Assembly (NCBI GenBank): GCA_028279725.1
Contig: JANQNE010000011.1
Span: forward strand, 25,872 to 89,871
Length of the DNA: 64,000 nt
Source of the DNA: Candidatus Nanoarchaeia archaeon
GTDB taxonomy: Archaea; Nanobdellota; Nanobdellia; Woesearchaeales; JANQNE01
Direction: 5' to 3'
The first letter of the stretch is position 1, and every line of letters begins with the position of its first letter. Under the pieces are notes generated by a model that saw only the letters and a list, made by a program, of their open reading frames with translations, did no database searches and was not told the DNA's origin. This document shows, piece after piece, positions 3,241-59,936 of the stretch. The translations under genes and the position numbers were made by a program.

Positions 3241-4889
3241 TGGCAGAAGAAAATATCCATTGGGCAGACCAGATCGCTAAGGAAGTTAAGGAAAGGGTTG
3301 AGAAAGATCCTGTTCTTAAGAAGATTGTTGAAGAGAAGGGATTTATCGTATATGATGAGAAGACGCCATCTGGCACGATACATATAGGGTCTGGAAGAGG
3401 ATGGATAATACATGATGTTATCGCTAAGGCTATGAGAGATTTGGGGTTGAAAGCTAAGTTTATATTGAGTTCAGATGATATTGATCCTTATGACAAGCCG
3501 AACAAAGAACTGCCTAAGAGTTATGATAAATATCTAGGGATGCCTTTTAGGAATATTCCTTCACCTTTTGAAGGATATAAGAGCTTTGCAGACTATTATT
3601 TTATGCAGGTTGTTGAGAAGTTTGAAGAGATAGGCATAGAATGTGAGATACAGAGCACTGGTGAGCAGTATGAAAAGGGAACTTTTAATGCAGCGATAAA
3701 GAAAGTTTTGGATAATTCTGATACAATAAAGGAGATTTTTGAGGAAACTTATAGTAAAGAGTATAATAAGATCCCTTTTAATGTGATATGTGAGAAATGC
3801 GGAAAGATAGCAACTACAAAAGCGACAAAATGGGATAAAGAGAATGAGCTTTTGACATATAAGTGTGAGAAGAATCTTGTTGACTGGGCTGAAGGATGCG
3901 GTCATGAAGGACAGATAAGCCCTTATGATGGAAACGGGAAGCTTCCCTGGAAAGTTGAGTGGGCTGCTAAATGGCCTTCAGTCGGTGTTGTATGTGAGTT
4001 TGCCGGCAAAGATCATTTTACTGCTGGAGGTTCAAGAACTATTTCTATAGCAATAGCTGATCAGGTGTTAGATTTTCCACCACCTTATCCATCTACAAGA
4101 GAGGAGACAGGAAAAGGTTATGAGTTCTTTAATGTTGGCGGAAAGAAGATGAGCACTTCTAAAGGAAAGGGTTTTGGATTTGCTGAGATGTTCAATTATA
4201 TTCCTGCGCAGATTATTAGATATTTGTTGGTTAAGACTAGGCCGCATGCTGTGCTTGATTTTGATCCTGAAGGAAGAAATGATATGATACTTCTTTATGA
4301 AAGGTTTGATAGGGCAGAGAGGATGTATTTTGGAGAAGAGACTGATGATAACAAGAATGAAGTTGCAAACCAGAAGAGAATATATGAGTTAGCGCATGTT
4401 GGGGATATTCCTGACAGGATGCCTAAGCAGATACCATTTACTTTAGCTGCAACAGTTATACAAGTTGGATTAAGTGAGGAGAAAGCCATAGAGATATTGA
4501 AGAAAACAGGACATGTTGATGAAAATATTGAAGGGATGGATCTTCATTATGTACTGCAGAGATTAAGGGATGCAAAGAGATGGATAGAAAGGTTTGCTCC
4601 AGAGCAATATAAGTTTCAGGTGCAGGATAAATTAGCTGAAGGTATTGAGATTGATGATAAAGAGAAAGAAGTTCTTAAGAAGGTTATTGCTGAGCTTGAT
4701 AATGAGCTGGGTGAGGAAGAATTGCATAATAAATTCTGGGAATTATGCCAGGAAAATGATGTTAAACCAAAGGATTTTTTTAAAGCAGCGTATCAAGTGC
4801 TTATCAATAAAGATAGGGGACCAAAGTTAGCAGGTTTTATGCTTTCTATTGACAAAGATAAGGTTAAGAAACTTATTGAGAGTTTGTAA
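3240..4889 (+). CDS. lysK: Lysyl-tRNA synthetase, class I (archaeal type)
   Basis: N-terminus ENIHWADQIAKEV...PSGTIHIGSGRGW resembles class I LysRS (xHWAD...PSGxxHxGN). KMSKS-type motif KMSTSKGKG is present. Start ATG overlaps the dapF stop (ATAATGG). Confidence 0.85.
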   Translation: MAEENIHWADQIAKEVKERVEKDPVLKKIVEEKGFIVYDEKTPSGTIHIGSGRGWIIHDVIAKAMRDLGLKAKFILSSDDIDPYDKPNKELPKSYDKYLGMPFRNIPSPFEGYKSFADYYFMQVVEKFEEIGIECEIQSTGEQYEKGTFNAAIKKVLDNSDTIKEIFEETYSKEYNKIPFNVICEKCGKIATTKATKWDKENELLTYKCEKNLVDWAEGCGHEGQISPYDGNGKLPWKVEWAAKWPSVGVVCEFAGKDHFTAGGSRTISIAIADQVLDFPPPYPSTREETGKGYEFFNVGGKKMSTSKGKGFGFAEMFNYIPAQIIRYLLVKTRPHAVLDFDPEGRNDMILLYERFDRAERMYFGEETDDNKNEVANQKRIYELAHVGDIPDRMPKQIPFTLAATVIQVGLSEEKAIEILKKTGHVDENIEGMDLHYVLQRLRDAKRWIERFAPEQYKFQVQDKLAEGIEIDDKEKEVLKKVIAELDNELGEEELHNKFWELCQENDVKPKDFFKAAYQVLINKDRGPKLAGFMLSIDKDKVKKLIESL

Positions 4890-7747: not shown

Positions 7748-8314
7748 TTAAATCTTTTTGAGGCTTTTTAAAACCTCGGAAGGAGATTTTTCCTCGAATT
7801 CTTTTGAATATTCTTTATATTCATCTGTCTCTTTTAGGAATTGGTTTATGAGATGGAGTGCCTGTGCACTTGTATAGTTAAGACAGTTTAGGATGTGTTT
7901 CATGCAGTTCTTTTCTGTGAATTTGCAGTATTTATCTTCTGGCTCTATGAAGATCTTCAGTTCTCCGTCAATCCTTCTGAAACCAATAGGAAAGATCTTG
8001 CATATCAGTGGTCTGACTGGATAGACAATGCATTTTTTGTCTTCTAAGAAGATGCATTCTTTGTTTTCTTTGCTTTTTAGCTGGAGGACTTTTCCATTGT
8101 CACAGTATTCAAAATAAGAATGGTCGCGGTCTTCCATAACTTCTTTCTGCTCTTCTGGATCCTGGCATATCGGGCCATAGAAACAGAATTCTTCTATCTT
8201 TTTTCCAGTATGCTTTGATATCCTGTCTGCATCTCTTAGTGTAAGAAATGTCCCGTAATCTCCAATACAGCAATGTTCTTTGCATGTCTCACAAGGATGC
8301 TTATTCTGGCTCAA
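7748..8314 (-). CDS. Cys-cluster protein, YkgJ/UPF0153-like (putative Fe-S or Zn binding)
   Basis: N-terminal CETCKEHCC (CxxCxxxCC) plus further Cys pairs, as in YkgJ-family proteins. Confidence 0.45.
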   Translation of the reverse strand: MSQNKHPCETCKEHCCIGDYGTFLTLRDADRISKHTGKKIEEFCFYGPICQDPEEQKEVMEDRDHSYFEYCDNGKVLQLKSKENKECIFLEDKKCIVYPVRPLICKIFPIGFRRIDGELKIFIEPEDKYCKFTEKNCMKHILNCLNYTSAQALHLINQFLKETDEYKEYSKEFEEKSPSEVLKSLKKI

Positions 8315-9194
8315 AGTTGATCCACTCCCATTGTTTTGTCTCTTCTAAATTCCAAAGTTTCTTCCAGCCTGAATCACCCGACATAAAATCAATCTTTTTT
8401 GCTTTTAATTTTATTGCATTCTTTATATGTTCTGCTATAAGAAGCTTTCCTAAGTTCTTGATATCTGTGTTTGTTCCTCCGTCAAGGACATAGTAGACGT
8501 TATTGTAGAATATGGCTATTTCAGCAGCTTCTGTCTTGTTGCTGATCTTTATCGATAACATGTGAAGCATATCTTTTTCTTTTGCTGTTTCAACAAGTTT
8601 TTTCATGCTTTCTTCAAATCCATCCTGAAGATAGTTTGAATCTTCCCTAAATCTTTGTTTGTTAAGCTCTACAAGTGTCTTAAAGTCGTCTATGTTGTTC
8701 CATACTGTGCTGTAGTTCAGCTCTTCAAGATGCCTTAGGTCATATTTTATGTTTTTTCTGTGTTTTTTGCTGAAAGATGCAAAATAAGAGTCTATATCTG
8801 GAAAGTCCTCTATATTTAGTGAGAAGGATACATCGCATTCTTTTGGATCAGGAAAATATTCTTTCTCAGAATCATCTATGTATTCTATATTCATGTCTTC
8901 TGGGAATGAGTTAAGGAAATCTTTGATATGTTCTTTGTTTTTTATGAAGAATCTCCTTCTTTCAGGATAGTTTCCACCAAAGAATGCATGGAAATCATTA
9001 TCTCCTTCGTACTGTAATGGGAGCAGACCTATCTCTTTTCCTTCCTGGTAACCTACTACGAAAAAGAACTGATTAATCTTTGGATTGAAGAAGCAATGGT
9101 TGAACTCCCAAAGATCCCATAGTATCTCTTTTGGGCTGTATTTATCCCAAAGCTTCTTACAGTCTTCAAGTTTTGTGAAGGATTTAAATTCCAT
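8301..9194 (-). CDS. FemAB/CelD-like GNAT-fold protein (putative aminoacyl/acyl transferase), paralog A
   Basis: C-terminal region YYVLDGGTNTDIKNLGKLLIAEHIKNAIKLKAKKIDFMSGDSGWKKLW aligns with the C-termini of the two downstream paralogs (YY..G...LG......K..F.GS) and has the FemAB/CelD/BioF2-like (Acetyltransf_6-type) pattern. Function is inferred. Confidence 0.5.
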   Translation of the reverse strand: MEFKSFTKLEDCKKLWDKYSPKEILWDLWEFNHCFFNPKINQFFFVVGYQEGKEIGLLPLQYEGDNDFHAFFGGNYPERRRFFIKNKEHIKDFLNSFPEDMNIEYIDDSEKEYFPDPKECDVSFSLNIEDFPDIDSYFASFSKKHRKNIKYDLRHLEELNYSTVWNNIDDFKTLVELNKQRFREDSNYLQDGFEESMKKLVETAKEKDMLHMLSIKISNKTEAAEIAIFYNNVYYVLDGGTNTDIKNLGKLLIAEHIKNAIKLKAKKIDFMSGDSGWKKLWNLEETKQWEWINFEPE

Positions 9195-10107
9195 CCTTGT
9201 TTTTCCTCATTATCGAGAAAGTATATGTGTTGTATGTGCTTACTGGTTTAAATTTGTTCTTAAATTCAAGCAGGTCATCATCTGAACCGCCGAAATTGGC
9301 TTTATCGAAGCCCATCTTCTTTATCTCTATGAGGTCATATAGGTTTGTTATCTCTCCGAGTCCTTCAAATTTGTAGTTAAGCACACCTATGCCTGAATAA
9401 TATGTATTTGTGTTTGGAACTCTCCATCCTGCTGTTATCGAGCATGGAATTCCATCAACTATCAGTGTTTTTGCCATGTCACAGCCTGCGAAATCTGAAT
9501 CAACCATCCTAAAATAGCATTCTTTATAGGCAAAATCTTCTGCTCCTCTTTTATCTATCCAGTCTGTGATGATTTTCTTTAGTTCTTCTTTTGGAAGATC
9601 CAATGAATCTATTAGTTCAACTTTATGTTCTTCAAGGAATCTGTTCTTTATATTTCTTATCTTCTTCCATTTCTTTCCTTCAAGCTTATCTCCATCCCAT
9701 GTTTTCATATCATACATCGGCCATTCAAGCCTAAAGTTAAGCTGTCCTGATCTGAAGTCTGTGTTTTCAAGTTTTTCTTTCAGTTCTTTCCTGAATTTCT
9801 TGTCAACTTCTATCTGAAGCCTGTTAGCTTCGTCTTTGTTGAAAACATGATCTACAAACTTCATGAATGTTTCAAATTTCTCTTCTTTTGGAGCAAGGAC
9901 TTCAGATATCATATACCAAAGCTTGCCTGTCTTTGATTTTTGTGCAAGAACACCTTTGCTGTTATCAAAGCCTACAAATATAGGCATCTTTGCGCTTGTT
10001 GTCTGGTTCATATAGTGATGATAGTTATGTTCAGCATCATGGCCATGTATTTCAACAGCTTTTATTGCTTTTTCTTCAAATTCTTTCTTATCTGTCAATA
10101 CTTCCAA
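9184..10107 (-). CDS. FemAB-like GNAT-fold protein, paralog B
   Basis: Shares long identical motifs with paralog C: VLAPKE, GKKWKKIRNIKNRF, GCDM, ITAGWRVPNTNTYYSGIG, FGGSDDD. 307 aa. Confidence 0.5.
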   Translation of the reverse strand: MEVLTDKKEFEEKAIKAVEIHGHDAEHNYHHYMNQTTSAKMPIFVGFDNSKGVLAQKSKTGKLWYMISEVLAPKEEKFETFMKFVDHVFNKDEANRLQIEVDKKFRKELKEKLENTDFRSGQLNFRLEWPMYDMKTWDGDKLEGKKWKKIRNIKNRFLEEHKVELIDSLDLPKEELKKIITDWIDKRGAEDFAYKECYFRMVDSDFAGCDMAKTLIVDGIPCSITAGWRVPNTNTYYSGIGVLNYKFEGLGEITNLYDLIEIKKMGFDKANFGGSDDDLLEFKNKFKPVSTYNTYTFSIMRKNKDGI

Positions 10108-10119
10108 ACAAAAACACCC

Positions 10120-11034
10120 CTATTTCTTTGAGATTTTGAAAAAATAATACTTTTCCATACTATGTGGATTAAATTTCAGCTTGAAATTTAATAAGTTTTT
10201 CTTTTCAGAGCCTCCAAAATCGACAAAATCATATTTTTTTTCTTTTAACTGCTTTAGATCATCCACGTAAGCAACTTCTCCAAGTCCTTTGTGTTTGTAA
10301 TTGTGGATTCCTATGGATGAATAGTATGTGTTTGTATTGGGAATTCTCCATCCTGCTGTTATTGCACATGGTTCATCATTAACATAGATTATTCTTGTCA
10401 TATCACATCCTTTGAAGTCGTTCTCTACAAAGTTGAGGAATGTAGGGGCCCATGCTTTTGCTACAGTGCTTTTTCTTGTCTTTTCCCAGTCTTCGATTAC
10501 TTTTTTTATCAGTTCTTTGTCTTCTTTTTTGTATTCTTTTATCTCTATTCTGTTTTCATTGAAGAATGTGTTTTTGATGTTTCTTATCTTCTTCCAGTCT
10601 TTTCCTGGCAAAGAAGAGTCAAAATCATTCATATTGAATACTGGAGAGTCAAAGATCCTTGAAGGTTTATGGATGTTGTACTTTTCCTGGCTGATCTTGT
10701 TAAGAAATTTTCTTCTGAACTCTTTTTCTAATGTTAGGAATATCTTGTCTGATGATCTTAATGAATGTTCTATGAAGTTCAGCAGAAGGTCTAATTGTTT
10801 TTCTTTTGGAGCTAAAACATCTGAGATGATCTCATATTCATTATCATCTTCATAGTAAAGGGCGAAGACTCCATATTTTTCTTCAAAGATGAAGAAAGTC
10901 GGTATAACTCCTTCTTCTTTCATGTTATAATAATACCAGAAATTGTGTTCAGACATATTACCATAGCTGGAGATAAGCTGTTCAATAAGTTCCTTGCTTT
11001 CTAATATATTATTTATGACCCTCACGTTGATCAA
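10120..11034 (-). CDS. FemAB-like GNAT-fold protein, paralog C
   Basis: Tandem paralog of 9184-10107 (VLAPKE, GKDWKKIRNIKNTF, GCDM, ITAGWRIPNTNTYYSSIG, FGGSEKK). 304 aa. Confidence 0.5.
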   Translation of the reverse strand: MINVRVINNILESKELIEQLISSYGNMSEHNFWYYYNMKEEGVIPTFFIFEEKYGVFALYYEDDNEYEIISDVLAPKEKQLDLLLNFIEHSLRSSDKIFLTLEKEFRRKFLNKISQEKYNIHKPSRIFDSPVFNMNDFDSSLPGKDWKKIRNIKNTFFNENRIEIKEYKKEDKELIKKVIEDWEKTRKSTVAKAWAPTFLNFVENDFKGCDMTRIIYVNDEPCAITAGWRIPNTNTYYSSIGIHNYKHKGLGEVAYVDDLKQLKEKKYDFVDFGGSEKKNLLNFKLKFNPHSMEKYYFFKISKK

Positions 11035-11070
11035 GAAGAAGTTGTTATATTTAAATTATTAGATTCTCAA

Positions 11071-11163
11071 TGTATAACACGCTACGTTCTATTCTGGAAT
11101 GGATCTGTTTCAGATTCTAGTATTTTTATAACTCTGTCCGAGAACTTCGCTTGGTGTTATGCA
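11071..11163 (+). repeat. Copy 1 of a ~94-nt structured hairpin element (candidate ncRNA family)
   Basis: Terminal inverted repeat tgtataacac/gtgttatgca (10 bp, one G-U). Conserved internal GCTACGT..., CAGATTCTAG and ...ACTTCGCTTG shared with the copies at 48763-48857 and 59005-59097; inner 4-bp helix GTTC/GAAC. Confidence 0.55.
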
Positions 11164-11171
11164 CTTTAGGA

Positions 11172-12215
11172 TTAAGAATAACTGGTTTCTTCAGCTTTCT
11201 GCTGAGCTTCTATCAAAGGACCAAGTTTTTCTCTTAGGTTATGTCTTTCTATTGCACAATCAAGGATCTTCTGTATCATCTCATGATATTCTAATCCTAT
11301 TGACTGGGCTGCCATCGGTGTTGAGCAATCACAAGAGATTCCTGGATTTGGATTCATCTCTAAAACATAAGGGATGTTGTTTTCGCTTAATCTTATGTCA
11401 ACTCTTCCGTAATCCCTTACATCTAATAACCTGTATAGTTCTGCTGCAACTCTTTTGATCTTTGATTCTACATATTTAGGGATATCATCTGGCTGCCTGT
11501 AGTCTGCATTCTTGTATAATTCACTTTTTTCATCCCATTTAGCTTCATAAGAGAAGATTCTCATAGGGTCTGGAGTTAAGTTCTTGAAAGAAACTTCCAT
11601 AATTGGCAAGCTTATGAGGTTGCTTCCATTTCCAAGGACTCCAACATCAAGATCTCTTCCTCTGATATATTCTTCAACCAATGCAGGCTGATTGTATACT
11701 CTGTTTATGAATCCAACTCTTGACTGCAGCTCTTTTTCATTTCTTACTATTGCATCTGAGCTGATACCTATGCTGTTGTCCATCCTTGATGGCTTTACTA
11801 TCAAAGGAAAATGCAGATCAGGATCAAGTTTCTTGTTTCTTGAGTAAAATATCTGCCATTTTGGTGTTGGAATGCCATGATGCATCATTATCTCTTTTAC
11901 CCTAGCCTTATTCATACAAAGAGCCAGGCTTAAAGGACCAGAACCAGTATATGGTATATCTAACAGTTCAAGCATAGCTGCAACATGAGGCTCATGGAAC
12001 GAGTTTCCGTTGAATCTTTCGCAAACATTGAAAGCTATGTCAACATTTGCTCTTGACAGCTTACCAAATGTCTGTTCATTGACATCAAAGAACTCAACAT
12101 CATGGTTATTCTTCTTCAATGCTTCATGAACAAGGTTTCCAACCTTGAAAAGATCATTCTCAACTTCCTTATTTGAATATTCTTTAAAGATGTTAGAAAG
12201 AACAGCTACTTTCAT
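11172..12215 (-). CDS. ATP-grasp ligase of the D-alanine--D-alanine ligase family
   Basis: Ddl-like blocks: EPHVAAMLELLDIPYTGSG (cf. EDGxxQGxLExxxxPYVG), PLIVKPSRMDNSIGIS, ALVEEYIRGRDLDVGVLGN, RVDIRL...IPYVLEMNPNPGI. 347 aa. Confidence 0.7.
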   Translation of the reverse strand: MKVAVLSNIFKEYSNKEVENDLFKVGNLVHEALKKNNHDVEFFDVNEQTFGKLSRANVDIAFNVCERFNGNSFHEPHVAAMLELLDIPYTGSGPLSLALCMNKARVKEIMMHHGIPTPKWQIFYSRNKKLDPDLHFPLIVKPSRMDNSIGISSDAIVRNEKELQSRVGFINRVYNQPALVEEYIRGRDLDVGVLGNGSNLISLPIMEVSFKNLTPDPMRIFSYEAKWDEKSELYKNADYRQPDDIPKYVESKIKRVAAELYRLLDVRDYGRVDIRLSENNIPYVLEMNPNPGISCDCSTPMAAQSIGLEYHEMIQKILDCAIERHNLREKLGPLIEAQQKAEETSYS

Positions 12216-12866
12216 TTAGCACTGCACCCCTGTAGAAAACAACAACACACCATCTTTTTTTTGTTTTAGGTAAAAAAACATTCGGTTTATCACCAGTTTT
12301 TTATTTTTTTTATTTGTTAATGCAATTATATACTTTTTTATTTATAAATGTTATGTTTTTTGTTATTTTTTTAGAAATTTTTCTATAAAAAAGTTTTTTT
12401 AGTCTTATTCTTTTGTTTTTTATTTTGTTTTTTATCGTCGAGAAAATAACTTTTTTATGTTTTTGCTTTATTTTTTTACTTAATCTTGTTTTTTTGTTAG
12501 TTTTTGTAAAAAATTGCAAAAAAAGAAATTTTTAGTTTACTTTTTTTGGTAAAAATTTTTGTTTTATTTTTATCGTCGATAAAAAGTTTAGGAATTTTTT
12601 AGAAAAAATTTATTTTTTTAATTTTTGTTTAATTTTTTAGATTTTGTGATTATTTTTTCATCTTTTATTTTCTTTTTATTTTTTTCAAAGAATAGTTTGA
12701 TTTTACTTATTGGATGTTGTTTTTTTGTTTGATTTCTGATGATTAGAAAACATTGGGTTTTCTAGCGTTTATTTGCTAAACTTTCAGAAAAAATTATACA
12801 TTATCAGAAAAGTTTATAAAGAGATTTAGGATATATTTCGCTATAAAACCAAAAAGGGGTATTACT
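12216..12866. other. 650-bp T-rich low-complexity divergent intergenic region with repeated TTTTATCGTCGA(G/T)AAAA motif
   Basis: Non-coding (the only ORF is a K-rich artefact). tatcgtcgagaaaa at 12433-12446 and tatcgtcgataaaaa at 12571-12585. Separates the minus-strand Ddl/Fem operon from the plus-strand retropepsin/RimK/AsnB operon. Confidence 0.5.
12813..12820 (+). promoter_or_regulatory. Putative archaeal TATA box for the 12867-16424 operon
   Basis: tttataaa lies ~50 bp upstream of the ATG at 12867, with an aaaggggt RBS at -14 to -7; positional inference only. Confidence 0.25.
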
Positions 12867-13211
12867 ATGGCTGCAAAACAAAAAATAATAGGGCTTACTG
12901 AAAAAGTACTGGTCTATGGCCAGAATAAAAAGAAAAATGTTGTCGCTAGGATAGATACTGGAGCGACAAAGTCTTCTATCGATGTAAAATTAGCTGCTGA
13001 GCTGCAGTTAGGTCCTATATACAGGACTAAATTAGTCAAGTCTACCCATGGTAATACATTAAGGCCTGTTGTTGAGATGAACATAAGACTTTCTGGGGTG
13101 GAATTAAGGTCAGATTTTACGATAGCTGACAGAACTGATATGAAATATCAGATATTGGTCGGCCAGAATATATTGAAAGAGGGAAATTTTTTGGTTAATC
13201 CTAAAAAATGA
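12867..13211 (+). CDS. RimK-associated retropepsin-like aspartic-protease-fold protein ('putative ATP-dependent zinc protease' family)
   Basis: DTGATKSSID (D-T/S-G-A) motif in a ~115-aa protein; its stop overlaps the start of the downstream RimK-like gene (ATGA), as in the conserved bacterial pair. Confidence 0.6.
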   Translation: MAAKQKIIGLTEKVLVYGQNKKKNVVARIDTGATKSSIDVKLAAELQLGPIYRTKLVKSTHGNTLRPVVEMNIRLSGVELRSDFTIADRTDMKYQILVGQNILKEGNFLVNPKK

Positions 13212-14311
13212 AAGCTGCATTAATCAGTCTAGGAAGCAAGAGCTCTCAATTTACAGCTGAAGCTATGAAGAATTACTTTGATGAAGTTGATGATCTTGAT
13301 ATAAAGAATATAGAAGTTAATTTTGGTGTTAAGGAGCTTGAACTATTATATAATGGAGAGCCTTTGAAGGATTATGACTGTGTCTATGCAAAAGGATCTT
13401 TCAGATATTCACCTTTGCTTGCGTCAATAACATCTGTATTGGCTAAGAAAGATATATATCTGCCGATAAGCGCAGATTCTTTTACTATAAGCCATGATAA
13501 GCTGCTTACACAGATAGAGCTTCAGAAGAACAAGATACCTATGCCTAAAACATATCTTTCTTCTACACCTGAAGCTGCAAGGGAGCTGTTAGAGAAGGTC
13601 AATTATCCTATAATCATGAAGTTTCCGCAGGGAACACAAGGGAAAGGGGTGATGGTCGCTGATTCTTTTGCTTCAGCATCTTCAATGCTTGATGCTTTGT
13701 CAGCTTTGAGACAGCCTTTTTTGATACAGGAATATATAGAGACAGGCGGAATCGATATAAGAGCGATAGTTGTGGGAAAGAAAGTTGTTGCAGCGATGAA
13801 AAGAAAGGCAGAAGGGGAAGAGAAGAGAGCAAATATACATGCAGGCGGTAAAGCAGAGCCTTGCCAGCTGGATGCTCACACTAAAAAGATCGCTATAGAT
13901 ACTGCAAAGGCAGTTGGTGCAGAGATATGCGGTGTTGATATATTAGAAAGTGCTAAGGGTCCTGTTGTCATTGAGGTGAATATATCTCCTGGGCTGCAGG
14001 GAATAATGGCTGCAACTAAGGTTAATGTTGCTGACAAGATAGCAAAATATCTTTATGAAGTTTCCAAGAAGAGATCTGAAGGGGATAAAAAAGAGTCAGC
14101 ATCAAAGATACTGAGCGATCTTGGTGTTGAAGAGGCAACAAAGACATCAAAAGATATAATGACGACCCTTGATTTCAGAGGAAAGAGGGTGTTGCTGCCT
14201 GAAGTTGTAACCAATCTTACTAAGTTTGATGATACGCAGGATGTTGTGATAAGTGCTGACAAAGGAAAGCTTGAGATAAAGAAGCTTATCATCGGCGCTA
14301 AGAAGAAATAA
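13208..14311 (+). CDS. RimK-family ATP-grasp ligase (alpha-L-glutamate ligase-like; LysX/ArgX/CofF/MptN relatives)
   Basis: ATP-grasp blocks PIIMKFPQGTQGKGV, LIQEYIETGGIDIRAIVVG, ICGVDILESAKGPVVIEVNISPG; a ~75-aa charged C-terminal tail lies beyond the grasp fold. Confidence 0.7.
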   Translation: MKAALISLGSKSSQFTAEAMKNYFDEVDDLDIKNIEVNFGVKELELLYNGEPLKDYDCVYAKGSFRYSPLLASITSVLAKKDIYLPISADSFTISHDKLLTQIELQKNKIPMPKTYLSSTPEAARELLEKVNYPIIMKFPQGTQGKGVMVADSFASASSMLDALSALRQPFLIQEYIETGGIDIRAIVVGKKVVAAMKRKAEGEEKRANIHAGGKAEPCQLDAHTKKIAIDTAKAVGAEICGVDILESAKGPVVIEVNISPGLQGIMAATKVNVADKIAKYLYEVSKKRSEGDKKESASKILSDLGVEEATKTSKDIMTTLDFRGKRVLLPEVVTNLTKFDDTQDVVISADKGKLEIKKLIIGAKKK

Positions 14312-14342
14312 CTTTTTAAATAGAGAGTTCTTGTTTTGTCCT

Positions 14343-16424
14343 ATGTGTGGGATTATAGGGATATTTAACCATAAGGATGCTAAGAAGCTAGCTAAGAAGG
14401 GGCTGTCTAAGATATTATACAGGGGAAAGGACAGTAATGGCCTCTTTAGTTCTGAGAATTGCTGTATCGGACATTGCCTGCATTCTGTAGTTAATTTTGT
14501 TGAACAGCCTTTCAAAGGAAAAGGTGTGCTGATCGTAAATTGCGAGCTGTATAATTGGGAAGAGCTTAACGATAAATATAAGTTTAAGGCAAGGAATGAT
14601 TCTGAATTACTTTTTATGTTGTTGGAGAAGAAAGGAGTTTCAAAGATCAAAGAGATATTAGATGAGCTGGATGGTGTTTATTCTTTCTGCTATTGGATTG
14701 ATGATAAAGTTTATGTTGCGAGAGATATAATCGGTGTAAAGCCATTATGGTTCTCTAAGTATGAGCATCTTGGTTTTGCTTCTGAGAAAAAGGCATTGAA
14801 AGAGATAGGAATGTTTGATGCTGAGGAACTAAATCCCAGGAAGATATTAGTTTATGATGTGAAGAAGAATAAGGTTGAATTTATCGAGAGGGATTTTTTA
14901 AAGATAACACCTGAATTGAAGTGTAAATATGAAAAGATAAAGAAAGAGCTGACTGGGCTTGTTGTTAATTCTATCTCTAAAAGGATACCTGATCAGAAGT
15001 TTGGGATATTGTTTTCCGGAGGGATTGACTCTGGTCTGATCGCACATGCATGTAAAGAATTAGGTGTTGATTTTACATGCTATACTGCTGCTTTGAAAGA
15101 AAAAGGGATGGGAGAAGCAGAAGATATGGTCTATGCTAAGAAAGTTGCTGATAAATTAGGATTCAGGCTAAAGACAAAGACAATTTCTCTTAAAGAAACT
15201 GAAAAGTATCTGAAAAAAGTAGTTCCTTTGATAGAAGATTCCAATGTTGTTAAAGTTGGAGTGGGATTGACTTTCTATGTTGCATGTGAGATGGCTAAGA
15301 AAGATGGGATCAAAGTTATATTTTCCGGACTTGGATCTGAGGAGCTGTTTGCCGGCTATGAAAGGCATAGGAAAAGTGATCTGATAAACAAAGAATGCCT
15401 TTCTGGAGTCATTAAGATATATGAAAGGGATCTTTATAGGGATGATGTTATTGCGATGGCAAACAATCTTGAGCTTAGGCTTCCTTTTCTGGATAAGAAG
15501 CTTACTAGTTATGCACTGAAGATTCCTGCTAAATACAAGATAAAAGATGGGTTGACTAAAGTTGTTCTCCGTGATGTTGCTGTTGGTCTTGGTTATGATA
15601 AAGAATTTGCATCTAGAAGGAAGAAAGCTGCGCAGTATGGAAGCAAGTTTGACAGAGCGATAGCTAAACTTGCTAAGAGAAAAGGATTTAACCTTAAATC
15701 AGAATATTTGAGGACCTTTTATCCGGAAGTTAATCTTAAGCTAGGTGTGTTGTTCAGTTCTGGGAAAGACAGCTGCTATGCGATGCATGTTATGAAAAGA
15801 CAGAATTATGAGATAAGCTGCCTGATAACATTAAAGAGCAAAAATAAAGATTCTTATATGTTTCATACGCCTGCTATCGAGCTTGCTGAAGTGCAGGCGA
15901 AGGCGATGGAATTACCTATAATAGAACAGGAGACTGCAGGTGTTAAGGAAAAAGAGCTTGCTGATCTGAAGAAGGCATTAGCTGCTGCAAAGAAAGAGCA
16001 TAAGATAGAAGGTGTTGTGACCGGAGCATTATTTTCTAAATATCAGCGTGAAAGGATAGAGAAGGTTGCTGATAGTCTTGGGTTAAAGATATTTTCTCCT
16101 TTGTGGCATATGGATCAGGAGACTGAGCTTAAAAGTTTGGTGAGAGAAGGATTTGATGTTATTATCAGCTCTATAGCTGGTTATGGCATGGAAACAAAAG
16201 ATATAGGAAAGAGGATTGATGATAAGATGATCTCGAAATTGAGAAGGTTAAAAGATAAGATCGGGTTTAATGTAGCTGGAGAAGGCGGAGAGTTTGAGAG
16301 CTTTGTCCTTGATGGGCCTATGTTTAAGAAGAGATTGGAGATTGTTGATAGCCAGAGAGCTATAGAGAATGAATGTACTGGCAGGATGCTGATCAAGAAG
16401 ATTAAATTAGTCGACAAGAAATAG
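14343..16424 (+). CDS. Fusion: glutamine-dependent asparagine-synthetase-like amidotransferase (Ntn-GATase + PP-loop) + Dph6/MJ0570-like ATP pyrophosphatase domain
   Basis: MCGIIGI (Cys1 nucleophile), LYRGKD, NCELYNW, NDSELLF and RDIIGVKPLWF match AsnB N-domain motifs. SGGIDSG is the AsnB PP-loop. A second PP-loop FSSGKDSCYAMHVM and EGGEFESF (cf. EGGEYET) match the diphthine-ammonia-ligase family. The ORF-track start at 14331 is a TTG; the ATG at 14343 puts Cys at position 2. Confidence 0.7.
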   Translation: MCGIIGIFNHKDAKKLAKKGLSKILYRGKDSNGLFSSENCCIGHCLHSVVNFVEQPFKGKGVLIVNCELYNWEELNDKYKFKARNDSELLFMLLEKKGVSKIKEILDELDGVYSFCYWIDDKVYVARDIIGVKPLWFSKYEHLGFASEKKALKEIGMFDAEELNPRKILVYDVKKNKVEFIERDFLKITPELKCKYEKIKKELTGLVVNSISKRIPDQKFGILFSGGIDSGLIAHACKELGVDFTCYTAALKEKGMGEAEDMVYAKKVADKLGFRLKTKTISLKETEKYLKKVVPLIEDSNVVKVGVGLTFYVACEMAKKDGIKVIFSGLGSEELFAGYERHRKSDLINKECLSGVIKIYERDLYRDDVIAMANNLELRLPFLDKKLTSYALKIPAKYKIKDGLTKVVLRDVAVGLGYDKEFASRRKKAAQYGSKFDRAIAKLAKRKGFNLKSEYLRTFYPEVNLKLGVLFSSGKDSCYAMHVMKRQNYEISCLITLKSKNKDSYMFHTPAIELAEVQAKAMELPIIEQETAGVKEKELADLKKALAAAKKEHKIEGVVTGALFSKYQRERIEKVADSLGLKIFSPLWHMDQETELKSLVREGFDVIISSIAGYGMETKDIGKRIDDKMISKLRRLKDKIGFNVAGEGGEFESFVLDGPMFKKRLEIVDSQRAIENECTGRMLIKKIKLVDKK

Positions 16425-23282: not shown

Positions 23283-24782
23283 TTAACCTCTGTCAGCTTT
23301 CTCCAGCTTTTCTATCTTTTCTTTGTTTTTCTTTTTTATCGCTTTCTGGATCTTCTCATTTGAGAGTCCTAAGATCTGTGCTGCATGTCTTGCTGCATTA
23401 GCAGGTCTTAAGATCAATGAGTTAGAGCTTCCTGGTGGATTCTCTAAGCAAGAAAAGCAATCATCTGCATCAGGAGGACAGCTGATCACTGGGTGAACGC
23501 TGTGGAATGATACAACTCCTGAAAGAGCATCTGTTCCTCCTGCAACAGAGATAAATACAACTGGTTCTTCAGACTGGTTGTATTTGTTTATGATCTCTTC
23601 ACATCTTCTTGGTTGTTTGTGTGCTGAGCAGATTCTTATGACTGATGCCAGTCCGTATTTGTTCAACTCTTCCTGGATCTTTTTCAGATGAGGCATGTCA
23701 CTGTCTGATCCTGCTATGATAACTACTAAGCCACCTTTGATGTATCCTTCTTTTCTTAGCTTTTGGATCATATCTGTGCTTACATCTGACTGAGGGAAAT
23801 TGAACTTATTTCCTGTCAGGCTTTCATATAAACTGATATATCTGTAAGCAACTTCTATTACATCTTTGTCTTCAAGTTCTGGCGGCTTTTCTGTTGATCC
23901 GTAAGCACCATATCCTTTTTCAACAAGAACATCTCTAACGAACTGTTTTGACAGCTCTTTTATCTTTAGCTGTGGTTTTTTCTTAAGAAGTTCTGTTACA
24001 TCTTTGTATCTTCCTGTATCCATCTCTTTCTTTATTCCTGTGTATTTGTTGTATTCTTCTATTGTACAGTATCTTGATGAATCTGGTGTGTTTGCTTCGT
24101 CAATCAGGTTGATCTTTCCTTTTTCGTCGATACCAAACTCATACTTTGTGTCAATGAAGATAAATCCTTTCTGTTCTGCCAGTTTTGATGCACGCTTAAA
24201 TAGTCTTATTGAGATATCTCTGAGCTGTGTTGCCAGTTTTTTTCCAAGCTTATCTGCCATGTATTCAAAGCTTACATTAACATCATGATCTCCATCTTCT
24301 GCTTTTGTAGCTGGAGTAAATAATGGTTCTCTAAGCTTTTGGTATCTTAGCAATGAATCTGAAAGCTTTATTCCGCAGAACTCTCTTTTTCCATCTTCGT
24401 AGTCTGCAGCCATGCTTCCCCAAACATATCCTCTTACAACGAATTCGAATGCAATCTTATTCATCTTTTTCTGGACAATAACATTTCCATGAGGGCTTCT
24501 TATGACAGCGTTTGGAACAATATCTGTTGTGTTGTCAAATGCCCATTGTGCGAAGAGGTTTAATGTTAATCCTTTGAAAGGGATCTGCCTGCTAAGTACA
24601 TGGTCAAAGCAAGATATCCTATCTGATGCCACCATCACTATAGGTTTTCCAACTTTTGGTGATGTAAAATGTACTTCTCTTACTTTTCCTGATTTATGTG
24701 TTCCAAGTTCTGGGATGTATCCTGAGAACAGGGTATTGTCTAAGTTTTCTTTGATTATTTTTTTGTATTTTTGTTCTTCCAT
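23283..24782 (-). CDS. Bifunctional SAICAR synthetase (PurC, long/ADE1-type) + PurE class II (AIR carboxylase) fusion, PAICS-like
   Basis: N-terminal half has SGKVREVH, TKAEDGDHDVNVS and FIDTKYEFG (PurC). C-terminal half has VVIIAGSDSDMPH and CSAHKQP (PurE; SAHK indicates class II). Confidence 0.8.
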   Translation of the reverse strand: MEEQKYKKIIKENLDNTLFSGYIPELGTHKSGKVREVHFTSPKVGKPIVMVASDRISCFDHVLSRQIPFKGLTLNLFAQWAFDNTTDIVPNAVIRSPHGNVIVQKKMNKIAFEFVVRGYVWGSMAADYEDGKREFCGIKLSDSLLRYQKLREPLFTPATKAEDGDHDVNVSFEYMADKLGKKLATQLRDISIRLFKRASKLAEQKGFIFIDTKYEFGIDEKGKINLIDEANTPDSSRYCTIEEYNKYTGIKKEMDTGRYKDVTELLKKKPQLKIKELSKQFVRDVLVEKGYGAYGSTEKPPELEDKDVIEVAYRYISLYESLTGNKFNFPQSDVSTDMIQKLRKEGYIKGGLVVIIAGSDSDMPHLKKIQEELNKYGLASVIRICSAHKQPRRCEEIINKYNQSEEPVVFISVAGGTDALSGVVSFHSVHPVISCPPDADDCFSCLENPPGSSNSLILRPANAARHAAQILGLSNEKIQKAIKKKNKEKIEKLEKADRG

Positions 24783-26287: not shown

Positions 26288-27445
26288 CTAAAAATGTGCA
26301 AAGCATCTTTCTGTAGTATAGACCATTGCCATATCATGATCATTTGCTGCTTCAACAACCTCTAGGTCTTTTACAGAACCTCCTGGCTGTATTATTGCAG
26401 TTATACCTTGATTTGCTATAAGGTCAACTGAATCTCTGAAAGGAAAGAATCCATCTGATGAGATGACTGCTCCTTTTAGGGGATTTTCTGACAGTTTTTC
26501 TTTTGATGCTATGACATTTAATGAATCATATTCAATATTTTCCCTATCCATTGCTTTTTGGTATGCTTTTAGGATAGCCTGCTCAACAGCTCCAACTCTT
26601 TCTTGCTGTCCTGAGCCTATTGATAGGGAAACACCATTCTTAACAATAACAACACCATTACTTCTTACACCTAGGTTGATGTACCATGATGTTAGCAGGT
26701 CTTGGAGTTCCTGTATTGAAGGCTCTCTTTTTACTGAAACTTCTTTTTCATCTGTGTTTATTGTCGGATGTGTTATAAGATCTGATGGATCTTTTATCTT
26801 GCATAAGTAAGGTTTTTGGATGATTAATCTTCCTGCACCCATTATTTTGACGTCGAAGAGTCCTGTTGTGTCATCTCCAGCAAATTTTGGAACTTTGTCT
26901 AGGTTTTCGAATGTGAGCAGTCTCATGTTTTTCTTTTCGCTCAGGATATCTTCTGCTTCTTTCTGGAATCCAGGAGCTGCAACAGCTTCAACATAGCTTG
27001 TCATTATCTCTTCTGCTGTTTCTTTGTCAACTTCTCTGTTGAAAACTACTACTGAGCCGAATGCACTTCTTGCATCAGCATCTCTTGCATTTTTGTAGAT
27101 GTCTTTCAATGAGTTGTCCTGATATTGAGTTGCAAACCCCGAAGGTATTATGTGTTTCATAACGCAAACTGAAGGATGATTGAAGAACTTCAGTATTTCC
27201 ATAGCTCTTATTACATCCATTACATTTGTTGCTGATAATCCACCTTTTCCTGATTTTAGAAGCTGAATATTTGTAAGGTCAGCTATTGTTGATCCTTTGA
27301 ACTTGTATTCTGCTCCTGGCTGATTTGGATTTTCTCCATATCTTAGATCCATCTCTTTGACTAATTCTAACGGCAGTTCATCCGGATAGTCTCCAGCATT
27401 TACTGTCTTGTACATATTTTTTAGGTCGCTTAAGTTTTCTCCCAT
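26288..27445 (-). CDS. purH: AICAR transformylase domain of PurH, encoded as a separate gene
   Basis: LRYGENPNQ and downstream AICARFT blocks; begins 1 nt after the stop of the IMPCH gene, with its own RBS (GAGGGA). Confidence 0.8.
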   Translation of the reverse strand: MGENLSDLKNMYKTVNAGDYPDELPLELVKEMDLRYGENPNQPGAEYKFKGSTIADLTNIQLLKSGKGGLSATNVMDVIRAMEILKFFNHPSVCVMKHIIPSGFATQYQDNSLKDIYKNARDADARSAFGSVVVFNREVDKETAEEIMTSYVEAVAAPGFQKEAEDILSEKKNMRLLTFENLDKVPKFAGDDTTGLFDVKIMGAGRLIIQKPYLCKIKDPSDLITHPTINTDEKEVSVKREPSIQELQDLLTSWYINLGVRSNGVVIVKNGVSLSIGSGQQERVGAVEQAILKAYQKAMDRENIEYDSLNVIASKEKLSENPLKGAVISSDGFFPFRDSVDLIANQGITAIIQPGGSVKDLEVVEAANDHDMAMVYTTERCFAHF

Positions 27446-59834: not shown

Positions 59835-59936
59835 GGGCCTATAGTCTAATGGATAGAACAACCGGCTTCGGTAAGTGGGGTCAAAAGCTTCGCTTGTGGG
59901 TACCGGTTAGTGGGGGTTCGAATCCTCCTAGGCCCA
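59835..59936 (+). tRNA. tRNA-Arg (anticodon TCG) with a 30-nt intron at the canonical 37/38 position
   Basis: Acceptor GGGCCTA/TAGGCCC, T-arm GGGGG-TTCGAAT-CCTCC, anticodon stem ACCGG/CCGGT, loop C-T-TCG-G with U33 and G37. A 30-nt insert TAAGTGGGGTCAAAAGCTTCGCTTGTGGGT lies between G37 and A38. CCA is not encoded. Confidence 0.8.

What the first reader, a model, noticed from the sequence alone, without database searches (positions are those of the whole stretch)
14331..16424. Novel fusion of an asparagine-synthetase-like glutamine amidotransferase with a Dph6 (diphthine-ammonia ligase)-type ATP pyrophosphatase
One 690-aa polypeptide carries an Ntn-glutaminase domain (Cys nucleophile MCGIIGI), an AsnB PP-loop (SGGIDSG) and then a second, unrelated PP-loop ATP-PPase with the Dph6 hallmarks SSGKDS and EGGEFES. 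Both halves catalyse ATP-dependent carboxylate amidation, so the fusion could amidate two carboxylates or channel glutamine-derived ammonia to the Dph6-like site. Dph6 normally finishes diphthamide on EF-2, so its recruitment into a ligase cluster is unusual. The ORF-track start (TTG at 14331) is likely wrong; the ATG at 14343 places the catalytic Cys right after Met.
Basis: partly seen in the sequence, partly recalled or inferred. Interest (0 to 1): 0.6.

Follow-up and report, generated by a model that had tools for sequence, protein, structure and literature searches.

The report
Known AsnB-like–Dph6 fusion (diphthamide synthetase)
The gene really does join a glutamine-splitting asparagine-synthetase-like enzyme to the enzyme that finishes the diphthamide modification of elongation factor 2, but this fusion was described in 2012 and is the usual form of the gene in DPANN archaea and some methanogens, so it is a known and still biochemically untested architecture.

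Summary
ORF 14343-16424 (+) encodes a 693-aa protein with three domains: a class-II (Ntn) glutaminase, an AsnB-type PP-loop domain and a Dph6 domain. The Dph6 domain scores above NCBI's equivalog cutoff (TIGR03679, 274.7 bits against 197.3) and keeps the Dph6 motif EGGExE.

The ATG at 14343 is the start: all 51 aligned orthologues begin with MC.

The claim of novelty fails. De Crecy-Lagard et al. 2012 (PMC3541065) described this AsnB–DUF71 fusion in Methanohalophilus, Methanosalsum and Nanosalinarum and proposed that glutamine supplies the ammonia. More than 120 full-length orthologues exist, many already named diphthine--ammonia ligase.

In all 80 genomic loci with the closest Dph6 domains, the AsnB-like module lies directly upstream. 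It is fused in 75, frameshifted in 1 and a separate adjacent gene in 4.

The "ligase cluster" context is not conserved.

What I add:
- The AsnB-like half is not a canonical asparagine synthetase. E. coli Glu348 is replaced in 67/67 fusions and in 144/144 family representatives with a residue there. Arg49, Lys376 and the TTIR motif are also replaced, while Cys1 and the ATP/PPi-binding residues are kept.
- In Methanococcoides the partner is a separate, overlapping gene that has lost the catalytic Cys.

Best reading: a glutamine-dependent diphthamide synthetase. The route of the ammonia could not be tested here.

The parts
14343..16424 (+). Complete CDS of the 693-aa AsnB-like/Dph6 fusion protein, including the stop codon at 16422-16424
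   Evidence: ORF list. A 100% identical 693-aa protein is on public contigs. M1/C2 are invariant in 51 orthologues.
14313..14322 (+). TATA-like box TTTTTAAATA about 25 nt upstream of the ATG. It suggests a leaderless or near-leaderless archaeal transcript and argues against the TTG at 14331.
   Evidence: Read directly from the sequence. The promoter role is an inference from typical archaeal TATA-to-start spacing and was not tested.
14343..14912 (+). Class-II (Ntn) glutamine amidotransferase domain, aa 1-190. The nucleophile Cys2 is the codon at 14346-14348.
   Evidence: Pfam GATase_6/7. The equivalents of Cys1, Arg30, Asn74, Glu76 and Asp98 are conserved in at least 65 of 67 fusions, but Arg49 is Leu in 66/67.
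14913..15728 (+). AsnB-type PP-loop (synthetase-like) domain, aa 191-462. The PP-loop SGGIDS is at 15015-15032. Leu330, which replaces E. coli Glu348, is at 15330-15332.
   Evidence: Pfam Asn_synthase E 1.5e-43. Foldseek TM 0.77 to 6gq3 and 0.78 to 1ct9. Residue table against E. coli AsnB.
15729..16421 (+). Dph6 (diphthine--ammonia ligase, DUF71/Diphthami_syn_2) domain, aa 463-693. The PP-loop SSGKDS is at 15756-15773 and EGGEFE at 16281-16298.
   Evidence: TIGR03679 274.7 bits, above the 197.3 cutoff. PF01902 E 1.8e-65. TM 0.94 and rmsd 1.5 A to PF0828 3rk1. The PF0828 residues S44, Y45, E78, Y103, Q104, E183, E186 and E188 are all conserved (with for the motif definition).

Best explanation
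The gene encodes the fused form of archaeal diphthamide synthetase found in DPANN archaea and Methanosarcinaceae.

The C-terminal Dph6 domain is the catalytic amidoligase. It binds ATP at its SSGKDS PP-loop, adenylates the carboxylate of diphthine on elongation factor 2, and lets ammonia displace AMP to give diphthamide. That the domain belongs to the Dph6 family is shown here. The chemistry is inferred from what is established for Dph6.

The N-terminal Ntn glutaminase (Cys2 after Met removal) hydrolyses glutamine to supply the ammonia. The central AsnB-type PP-loop domain has lost the residues that make aspartyl-AMP but keeps its ATP/PPi-binding residues. It is proposed to serve as the cognate partner of the glutaminase: a tunnel-bearing scaffold, perhaps ATP-gated, that hands ammonia on to the Dph6 site. 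Both of these steps are inferred.

The enzyme would then be a glutamine-dependent version (EC 6.3.5-type) of the ammonia-dependent EC 6.3.1.14 reaction.
For: Dph6 identity:
- HMM score above the equivalog cutoff.
- 38% identity, TM 0.94 and rmsd 1.5 A to PF0828.
- The Dph6-specific EGGE/DxE motif is present, not the ENGEF/YH motif of the B12 subfamily.
- In the complete genomes of M. mahii and M. zhilinae only one DUF71 homologue is listed. It should therefore be the fused protein reported for them, and so their only candidate Dph6.

Functional coupling of the two halves:
- All 80 loci with the closest Dph6 domains have the AsnB-like module directly upstream. It is fused in 75, frameshifted in 1 and a separate adjacent gene in 4.
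- Pairwise divergence of the three domains is correlated (r 0.63-0.74), and all three are conserved (mean identity 0.48, 0.55 and 0.62).
- The AlphaFold model has pLDDT 91 and pTM 0.87, which points to one rigid body rather than beads on a string.

Glutaminase is probably live: the Cys1, Arg30, Asn74, Glu76 and Asp98 equivalents are kept in 65-67 of 67 fusions.

The central domain is not an asparagine synthetase:
- The Glu348 equivalent is Leu, Ser, Ile or Thr in 67/67 fusions, and none of the 144 family representatives with a residue at that position has Glu.
- The Lys376 and TTIR-motif residues are replaced.
- TIGR01536 scores below its cutoff.
- In human ASNS the equivalent Glu-364 lines the synthetase end of the ammonia tunnel (PMC11615228).

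The glutamine-feeding idea itself was proposed in PMC3541065.
Against: - No experiment exists for any member of the fusion family.
- Arg49, which from my knowledge of Ntn amidotransferases anchors the glutamine carboxylate, is Leu in 66/67 fusions. Glutamine use is therefore not certain.
- The central domain keeps an invariant PP-loop and the Lys429/Lys449, Asp/Glu351 and Glu352 equivalents. That is more conservation than a passive conduit needs.
- Close stand-alone orthologues of the AsnB-like module exist without an adjacent Dph6 gene, so the module can act on its own.
- In Methanococcoides the partner has lost its catalytic Cys yet is retained, so glutamine hydrolysis cannot be its only role.
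- A tunnel reaching the Dph6 site could not be checked, because no coordinates are returned. It would also have to coexist with docking of the large EF-2 substrate.
Confidence: 0.55

Rival explanations
1. The protein is a bifunctional fusion of two independent amidoligases. The GATase plus AsnB-like PP-loop pair amidates its own small-molecule or protein carboxylate: asparagine synthesis by a non-canonical mechanism, or an unknown substrate. Dph6 separately amidates diphthine, either with free ammonia or by sharing the glutaminase.
For: - The PP-loop SGGxDS and the S346, G347, D/E351, E352, Y357, R387, K429 and K449 equivalents are (nearly) invariant in 67 fusions. This argues for ATP-dependent chemistry in the central domain.
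- Stand-alone orthologues at about 50% identity occur without a neighbouring Dph6 gene.
- More distant stand-alone relatives pass the NCBI AsnB equivalog cutoff and are named asparagine synthase.
- De Crecy-Lagard et al. suggested that ammonia goes to both sites.
Against: - The catalytic, tunnel-exit Glu348 is absent from every member examined.
- The Lys376 and TTIR residues used for aspartyl-AMP formation are replaced.
- The fusion or adjacency with Dph6 holds in 80/80 loci across distant lineages. That is hard to explain for unrelated pathways.
- No second substrate is suggested by gene context, which is not conserved.
Confidence: 0.27
2. The AsnB-like module is mainly a non-catalytic partner of Dph6: a scaffold, a stabiliser, or an EF-2 recognition or ATP-sensing subunit. 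Its enzymatic features are relics.
For: - In Methanococcoides and a related MAG the partner is a separate gene. In M. vulcani it overlaps the Dph6 gene by 4 nt.
- In all four of these loci the N-terminus reads MGRIAG (no Cys nucleophile), Asn74 is Asp and SGxG is AGAG. In 3 of the 4 the PP-loop reads SAGIDS.
- The partner nevertheless stays 40-45% identical to the window's module.
- The high pTM of 0.87 suggests tight packing against Dph6.
Against: In the window protein and in all 67 fused proteins Cys1 and the PP-loop are invariant, and Asn74 and Asp98 are kept in 66/67. This indicates selection on catalysis. The GATase domain's mean identity of 0.48 across DPANN and methanogens is high for a relic.
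Confidence: 0.13
3. The fusion is an artefact: a misassembly, or a frameshift or read-through that joins two neighbouring genes in this MAG.
For: None found. One of the 80 related loci (L065) shows a frameshift in the opposite sense, splitting the ORF.
Against: An identical 693-aa protein is on record on two public contigs. More than 120 full-length orthologues exist. 75 of 80 genome loci are fused, including cultured Methanolobus bombayensis DSM 7082 and M. psychrotolerans. The junction has pLDDT above 90.
Confidence: 0.01

Closest known systems
AsnB(COG0367)-DUF71 fusion proteins of Methanohalophilus mahii, Methanosalsum zhilinae and 'Ca. Nanosalinarum' (de Crecy-Lagard et al. 2012, Biol Direct 7:32, PMC3541065)
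   Same: Identical domain order: GAT-II, then an Asn_synthase PP-loop domain, then DUF71/Dph6. The window's Dph6 domain is about 60% identical to that of fused relatives in Methanosarcinaceae (Methanolobus, Methanomethylovorans). The same hypothesis of glutamine-derived ammonia applies.
   Different: The DPANN proteins, including this one, have Leu at the E. coli Glu348 position, where the Methanosarcinaceae proteins have Ser. The Lys376 equivalent is Gly rather than Asp. Otherwise it is an orthologue, and nothing is functionally distinct.
Stand-alone archaeal Dph6: Pyrococcus furiosus PF0828 (PDB 3rjz/3rk0/3rk1) and P. horikoshii PH1257 (2d13)
   Same: The C-terminal 230 aa align end to end (E 3e-52 and 5e-54, TM 0.94). 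The PP-loop, the EGGExE motif and the proposed EF-2 interface residues are conserved.
   Different: Those proteins have no glutaminase or second PP-loop domain and are presumed to use free ammonia.
Yeast/eukaryotic Dph6 (YLR143W): DUF71 with two C-terminal RidA/YjgF domains
   Same: The same catalytic DUF71 domain, fused to a domain proposed to supply ammonia.
   Different: The accessory domains are unrelated (RidA versus Ntn-glutaminase plus AsnB PP-loop) and sit on the opposite end of the protein.
Glutamine-dependent asparagine synthetase: E. coli AsnB (1ct9) and human ASNS (6gq3)
   Same: The same two-domain fold for aa 1-462 (TM 0.77-0.78, 25-27% identity). The N-terminal Cys, Asn74, Asp98, the PP-loop and Lys449 are conserved.
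   Different: Arg49 is Leu, Glu348 is Leu, Lys376 is Gly and the TTIR motif reads VKVG. The C-terminal ~90 residues of AsnB are missing. The score is below the TIGR01536 cutoff.
Other glutaminase plus PP-loop amidoligases with ammonia tunnels (GMP synthetase, glutamine-dependent NAD+ synthetase)
   Same: The general logic: a glutaminase domain feeds ammonia to a PP-loop adenylating site (from my own knowledge; reviews PMC10526850 and PMC3376133 were listed but not read in detail).
   Different: Those enzymes have one PP-loop site and small-molecule substrates. Here there are two PP-loop domains, and the substrate is a residue on an ~80-kDa protein.

Membership tests
Dph6 / diphthine--ammonia ligase (TIGR03679, PF01902, DUF71-Dph6 subfamily) | Full-length match to the family HMM above the curated cutoff | tested here: met
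   TIGR03679 scores 274.7 bits against a cutoff of 197.3, covering profile positions 2-217 of 218. PF01902 E 1.8e-65, profile positions 2-218 of 219.
Dph6 / diphthine--ammonia ligase (TIGR03679, PF01902, DUF71-Dph6 subfamily) | N-terminal PP-loop ATP-binding motif (SGGKDS type) | tested here: met
   SSGKDS at aa 472-477. S472, G474, K475, D476 and S477 are invariant in 51 orthologues.
Dph6 / diphthine--ammonia ligase (TIGR03679, PF01902, DUF71-Dph6 subfamily) | The EGGE/DxE188 motif, which separates Dph6 from the DUF71-B12 subfamily (ENGEF/YH) | tested here: met
   EGGEFE at aa 647-652 aligns to PF0828 E183-E188. The motif definition comes from PMC3541065.
Dph6 / diphthine--ammonia ligase (TIGR03679, PF01902, DUF71-Dph6 subfamily) | Conserved residues proposed to contact EF-2 (PF0828 S44, Y45, E78, Y103, Q104, A149) | tested here: met
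   S504, Y505, E538, Y567 and Q568 are conserved. A149 aligns to G613 here, where most orthologues have Ala.
Dph6 / diphthine--ammonia ligase (TIGR03679, PF01902, DUF71-Dph6 subfamily) | Same fold as solved Dph6 homologues | tested here: met
   Foldseek against 3rk1_B gives TM 0.94 and rmsd 1.5 A over 228 columns, using a model with pLDDT 91.
Dph6 / diphthine--ammonia ligase (TIGR03679, PF01902, DUF71-Dph6 subfamily) | It is the organism's diphthamide-forming enzyme: sole Dph6, with Dph2, Dph5 and an EF-2 His present, and ATP-dependent amidation activity | not testable with these tools
   Only 64 kb of the genome is available. There is no second DUF71 copy and no recognisable dph2, dph5 or EF-2 domain in the window. 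In the complete M. mahii and M. zhilinae genomes only one DUF71 homologue is listed.
Glutamine-hydrolysing asparagine synthetase AsnB (TIGR01536 / EC 6.3.5.4) | HMM score above the equivalog cutoff | tested here: not met
   260.9 bits against a cutoff of 267.1. NF006949 (AsnB) scores 215.8 against 499.
Glutamine-hydrolysing asparagine synthetase AsnB (TIGR01536 / EC 6.3.5.4) | N-terminal nucleophile Cys directly after Met, plus the Asn74/Asp98 glutaminase residues | tested here: met
   MCGIIG start. C1 is kept in 67/67 fusions, and N74 and D98 in 66/67 each.
Glutamine-hydrolysing asparagine synthetase AsnB (TIGR01536 / EC 6.3.5.4) | Arg49, which binds the glutamine alpha-carboxylate (role from my knowledge of the 1CT9 structure) | tested here: not met
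   Leu46 here. Leu in 66/67 fusions, and Arg in only 5 of 107 family representatives with a residue there.
Glutamine-hydrolysing asparagine synthetase AsnB (TIGR01536 / EC 6.3.5.4) | PP-loop SGGxDS and the PPi/ATP-binding lysines (K429, K449) | tested here: met
   SGGIDS at aa 225-230. The K429 equivalent is kept in 67/67 fusions. The K449 equivalent (K427 here) is Lys in 65/67 and Arg in 2.
Glutamine-hydrolysing asparagine synthetase AsnB (TIGR01536 / EC 6.3.5.4) | Glu348 at the tunnel exit, needed for beta-aspartyl-AMP formation (role from my knowledge of E. coli AsnB mutagenesis; tunnel position of human Glu-364 from PMC11615228) | tested here: not met
   Leu330 here. 0/67 fusions and 0/144 family representatives have Glu.
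Glutamine-hydrolysing asparagine synthetase AsnB (TIGR01536 / EC 6.3.5.4) | Aspartate-binding and intermediate-stabilising residues (Lys376, Thr322 and the Arg of the TTIR motif) | tested here: not met
   The Lys376 equivalent is Gly355 here. TTIR reads VKVG here, and the K and G are conserved in 66/67 and 61/67 fusions.
AsnB-DUF71 fusion architecture (de Crecy-Lagard et al. 2012) | One polypeptide with GAT-II, an Asn_synthase PP-loop domain and DUF71, in that order | tested here: met
   for the domains. for the published description. for orthology with the Methanosarcinaceae fusions.

The most novel reading that the evidence does not exclude
The AsnB-like PP-loop domain may be neither an asparagine synthetase nor a mere pipe. 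It could be an obligate second subunit of diphthamide synthetase in a large archaeal clade, retained even where its glutaminase is dead (Methanococcoides). It would either extend an ammonia tunnel across two PP-loop domains to a protein-bound substrate, or carry out a second, unknown ATP-dependent step on EF-2. That would make this the first glutamine-dependent, tunnel-coupled amidoligase acting on a protein side chain.
Probability: 0.3. Interest if true: 0.55.

Novelty: already known. Interest (0 to 1): 0.28.

Why it matters
[quoted passage not shown] This fusion family is the clearest genomic hint that some archaea use glutamine.

The protein is also the standard Dph6 of Woesearchaeota/Nanoarchaeota-type DPANN archaea, so annotating it simply as "asparagine synthase", as JGI often does, overstates the amino-acid biosynthetic capacity of these reduced genomes.

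The residue-level result (no Glu348, Arg49 or Lys376 anywhere in the family) and the split Methanococcoides form without the catalytic Cys give concrete mutants and natural variants for a biochemical test. None of this changes the fact that the architecture and the hypothesis have been in the literature since 2012.

Tried and rejected
- Ammonia tunnel in the AlphaFold model: the tool returns no coordinates or PAE and /data holds only FASTA, so the geometry could not be examined.
- The afdb50 fold search is not installed.
- Conserved gene context as a clue to a second substrate: the neighbours of orthologues differ completely (a Drg-like GTPase and KTI12 in L001; radical SAM and aminotransferase genes in L002; RimK and IMPDH here). 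I rejected this line.
- The 'ligase cluster' idea: RimK plus retropepsin is a self-contained pair, and the downstream genes are purine biosynthesis. I rejected it.
- Second Dph6, dph2, dph5 or EF-2 in the window: none found.
- Open-access papers on Glu-348 of AsnB: no hits. The role of that residue therefore rests on my own knowledge, plus the tunnel description for human Glu-364.
- Later papers on Dph6 in DPANN: Narrowe et al. 2018 (PMC6143161) does not mention the fusion.
- Misassembly or frameshift artefact: rejected.
- ARAGORN found no tRNA, although Rfam finds one. This is irrelevant to the finding.
Full report

Yes. The window has one ORF at 14331 (TTG) or 14343 (ATG) to 16424 on the + strand. 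Translated from the ATG it gives 693 aa beginning MCGIIGI.

- Pfam finds GATase_7/GATase_6 (aa 30-153), Asn_synthase (E 1.5e-43) and a complete Diphthami_syn_2 domain (aa 466-688, E 1.8e-65).
- NCBIfam places the C-terminal domain in the archaeal Dph6 equivalog TIGR03679 at 274.7 bits, above the 197.3 cutoff.
- The N-terminal two-thirds score 260.9 bits against the asparagine synthase equivalog TIGR01536, just under its 267.1 cutoff.
- Against PDB sequences the C-terminal part matches PH1257 (5e-54) and PF0828 (3e-52). The N-terminal part matches human ASNS (9e-36) and E. coli AsnB (8e-32).
- An AlphaFold model built on 51 orthologues has mean pLDDT 91.1 and pTM 0.87.
- By Foldseek, residues 1-~460 superpose on ASNS/AsnB (TM 0.77-0.78) and the last 230 on PF0828/PH1257 (TM 0.94, rmsd about 1.5 A).

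That test is passed: it is a Dph6 domain.

**2. Start codon**

M1 and C2 are invariant in 51 orthologues, and public gene calls use the 693-aa form. An Ntn glutaminase needs Cys as its first residue after Met removal.

A TATA-like TTTTTAAATA sits at 14313-14322, about 25 nt upstream of the ATG. That fits a leaderless archaeal transcript and leaves the TTG at 14331 too close to the box. This last point is my inference.

**3. Is it novel?**

No. De Crecy-Lagard et al. 2012 (PMC3541065) reported that in Methanohalophilus mahii, Methanosalsum zhilinae and 'Ca. Nanosalinarum' an AsnB module (a GAT-II domain plus an Asn_Synthase PP-loop domain) is fused to the N-terminus of DUF71/Dph6. They proposed that glutamine hydrolysis supplies ammonia to both PP-loop enzymes. 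A reviewer asked which PP-loop uses the ammonia and what the AsnB-like one does.

In the protein database the query has an identical entry drawn from NCBI and Logan data. It also has more than 120 full-length (about 100% coverage) relatives at 56-76% identity. The named ones are mostly from Woesearchaeota or Nanoarchaeota and are called 'diphthine--ammonia ligase' (NCBI) or 'asparagine synthase (glutamine-hydrolysing)' (JGI).

**4. How tight is the link between the two halves?**

I scanned one genome per species (GTDB) with an alignment of the Dph6 domain alone. The 80 closest loci come from Woesearchaeota/Nanoarchaeota MAGs and from Methanosarcinaceae (Methanolobus bombayensis DSM 7082, M. 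psychrotolerans, Methanomethylovorans, Methanococcoides). A few come from Hydrothermarchaeaceae, Methanofastidiosia and Methanophagales.

- In 72 loci the Dph6 match continues upstream in frame for more than 400 codons that contain SGGxDS and, in most, an MC(G/A/S) start.
- Three more are the same fusion cut by a contig end.
- One (L065) has a frameshift between the halves.
- Four (three Methanococcoides and a related MAG) carry the AsnB-like gene as a separate ORF immediately upstream. In M. vulcani the two genes overlap by 4 nt (2352-3986 and 3983-4690).

So 80 of 80 loci keep the pair together. Across 68 fused sequences (the 67 from these loci plus the window protein) the three domains are all conserved, with mean pairwise identity 0.48, 0.55 and 0.62. 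Their pairwise divergences are correlated (r 0.63-0.74), as expected if they evolve as one unit.

In the complete genomes of M. mahii and M. zhilinae only one DUF71 homologue is listed (Table S1 of PMC3541065). It should therefore be the fused protein reported for them, and so their only candidate Dph6.

The window itself has no second DUF71 copy, and Pfam scans of its other ORFs show no dph2, dph5 or EF-2 domains. The rest of the genome is not available to me.

**5. Gene context**

Upstream here are a retropepsin-like peptidase and a RimK ATP-grasp ligase. Downstream are IMPDH, adenylosuccinate synthetase, GMP synthase and a long purine-biosynthesis cluster.

Orthologues on long contigs have entirely different neighbours. 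One has a Drg-like GTPase and a KTI12-like kinase. Another has radical SAM and aminotransferase genes.

**6. What the Dph6 half shows**

The residues singled out for PF0828 are all present: S44, Y45, E78, Y103, Q104, E183, E186 and E188 correspond to S504, Y505, E538, Y567, Q568, E647, E650 and E652. Most are invariant in the family.

The motif is EGGEFE, the Dph6 signature EGGE/DxE. It is not the ENGEF/YH motif of the B12-salvage subfamily. I therefore file this domain as a Dph6 with high confidence.

**7. What the AsnB-like half shows**

This is the part that goes beyond the 2012 description. I aligned 67 fused proteins to E. coli AsnB, fetched from MG1655, and used mature numbering.

Kept on the glutaminase side:
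- Cys1 (67/67), Arg30 (67/67), Asn74 (66/67), Glu76 (65/67) and Asp98 (66/67).

Kept on the synthetase side, all residues of the ATP/PPi/Mg site:
- Leu232, the PP-loop S234-G-G-x-D238-S239, Ser346, Gly347, Asp/Glu351, Glu352, Tyr357, Arg387, Lys429 and Lys449.

Replaced:
- Arg49 is Leu (66/67), followed by a conserved His.
- The T322 equivalent is Lys, and the Arg of the TTIR motif is Gly.
- Glu348 is Leu in 40 fusions, which include the DPANN-labelled proteins, and Ser in 25, mostly Methanosarcinaceae; one each has Ile and Thr. No fusion has Glu (0/67).
- Lys376 is Gly or Asp.

The search of 1.84 billion cluster representatives gave 148 further relatives of the N-terminal 462 aa. None of the 144 with a residue at the Glu348 position has Glu, and Arg49 survives in only 5 of 107.

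From my knowledge of the E. coli AsnB literature, Glu348 is required for beta-aspartyl-AMP formation and Lys376 is modelled on the aspartate carboxylate. The open-access human ASNS cryo-EM paper describes the equivalent Glu-364 as a conserved residue lining the synthetase end of the ammonia tunnel (PMC11615228).

The module also lacks the last ~90 residues of AsnB. The central domain therefore looks like an ATP-binding AsnB relative that cannot make asparagine in the canonical way.

**8. Two observations that complicate a simple 'glutaminase feeds Dph6' story**

First, the same AsnB-like subfamily also occurs as stand-alone proteins of 440-510 aa at about 50% identity, with no Dph6 gene next to them (P0136 in L005, P0127 in L007). 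More distant stand-alone relatives occur in Hydrothermarchaeota and Njordarchaeales and are named asparagine synthase.

Second, the split Methanococcoides partner has lost the nucleophile. Its N-terminus reads MGRIAG, Asn74 is Asp and SGxG is AGAG. In three of the four loci the PP-loop reads SAGIDS. It is nevertheless retained next to Dph6, overlapping it by 4 nt in M. vulcani, at 40-45% identity to the window's module. So the partner has some value to Dph6 beyond glutamine hydrolysis.

**9. Best explanation and rivals**

Most likely (about 0.55) this is a glutamine-dependent diphthamide synthetase. The Dph6 domain adenylates and amidates diphthine on aEF-2. The Ntn domain makes ammonia from glutamine. 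The central AsnB-like domain, stripped of its aspartate chemistry, acts as the glutaminase's cognate tunnel or scaffold, perhaps gated by ATP.

- Shown here: domain identities, active-site inventories, obligatory linkage of the halves, and a rigid predicted packing (pTM 0.87).
- Inferred: the glutamine substrate (Arg49 is missing), the ammonia route, and the role of ATP binding in the central domain.

Rivals:
- A genuinely bifunctional enzyme whose central domain amidates another carboxylate (about 0.27). It is favoured by the invariant ATP-site residues and the stand-alone orthologues.
- A mainly structural or regulatory partner (about 0.13). It is favoured by the Methanococcoides decay.
- An assembly artefact (about 0.01). 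Rejected.

**10. Verdict**

The architecture and its interpretation are already published and widely annotated, so this is a further orthologue of a known, experimentally uncharacterised fusion family. Interest is modest. It rests on the still-open question of where the ammonia comes from, and on the new residue-level and split-gene observations that make the question testable.

Noticed in passing
L087 2352-3986 and 3983-4690; also L076, L081, L085: In Methanococcoides (M. vulcani, M. alaskense, one MAG) and a related 'Halobacteriota' MAG, the AsnB-like partner of Dph6 is a separate gene immediately upstream. In M. vulcani (L087) the two genes overlap by 4 nt. The partner has lost the catalytic Cys (N-terminus MGRIAG), and its PP-loop reads SAGIDS in 3 of 4. 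This is a natural 'dead glutaminase' variant of the fusion.
   Followed up: partly
window 28735-31404 (-): An 888-aa ORF combines a PurF-like part (GATase_6/7 plus Pribosyltran) with a complete PurD (GARS N/A/C domains). It is an apparent PurF-PurD fusion inside a large purine-biosynthesis cluster.
   Followed up: no
window 23283-24782 (-): A 498-aa ORF combines SAICAR synthetase (PurC) and AIR carboxylase (PurE) domains. It is an apparent PurC-PurE fusion.
   Followed up: no
window 16540-37227: A nearly complete set of de novo purine and GMP/AMP genes lies next to the finding: GuaB, PurA (576 aa, long), GuaA, PurM, PurN, FolD, a split PurH (26288-27445 and 27447-28169), MTHFS, PurQ, PurL and PurB. 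This is notable for an organism whose closest relatives by this protein are DPANN archaea, which are usually poor in biosynthesis.
   Followed up: no
window 8301-14311: A run of peptide-ligase-type genes: GNAT Acetyltransf_6 (8301-9194, -), two LPG_synthase_C/FemAB-like ORFs (9184-11034, -), a D-Ala-D-Ala-ligase-like ATP-grasp (11172-12215, -), then a retropepsin-like peptidase (12867-13211, +) overlapping a RimK-family ligase (13208-14311, +). It is not conserved next to orthologues of the fusion.
   Followed up: partly
window 59835-59936 (+): Rfam finds a 102-nt tRNA (51.6 bits), presumably intron-containing. ARAGORN reported no tRNA in the window.
   Followed up: no
P0246, P0248, P0250, P0254, P0258, P0260, P0262, P0265, P0266: Proteins of about 290-300 aa match only the PP-loop domain (query aa ~185-460) of the AsnB-like module, with no glutaminase domain. 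They could be split genes or N-terminally truncated gene calls.
   Followed up: no
window 38883-40670 (+): A B12-binding radical SAM protein with a DUF4070 domain lies next to a DHH/DHHA1 phosphoesterase (40703-41737). The 1100-aa ORF at 41910-45212 has no confident Pfam domain.
   Followed up: no
P0134: This database protein ends in ...CLLYTSPSPRDLSTSRMPSSA. It looks like translated sequencing-adapter sequence at a contig end, so its 'stand-alone' length is an artefact.
   Followed up: no
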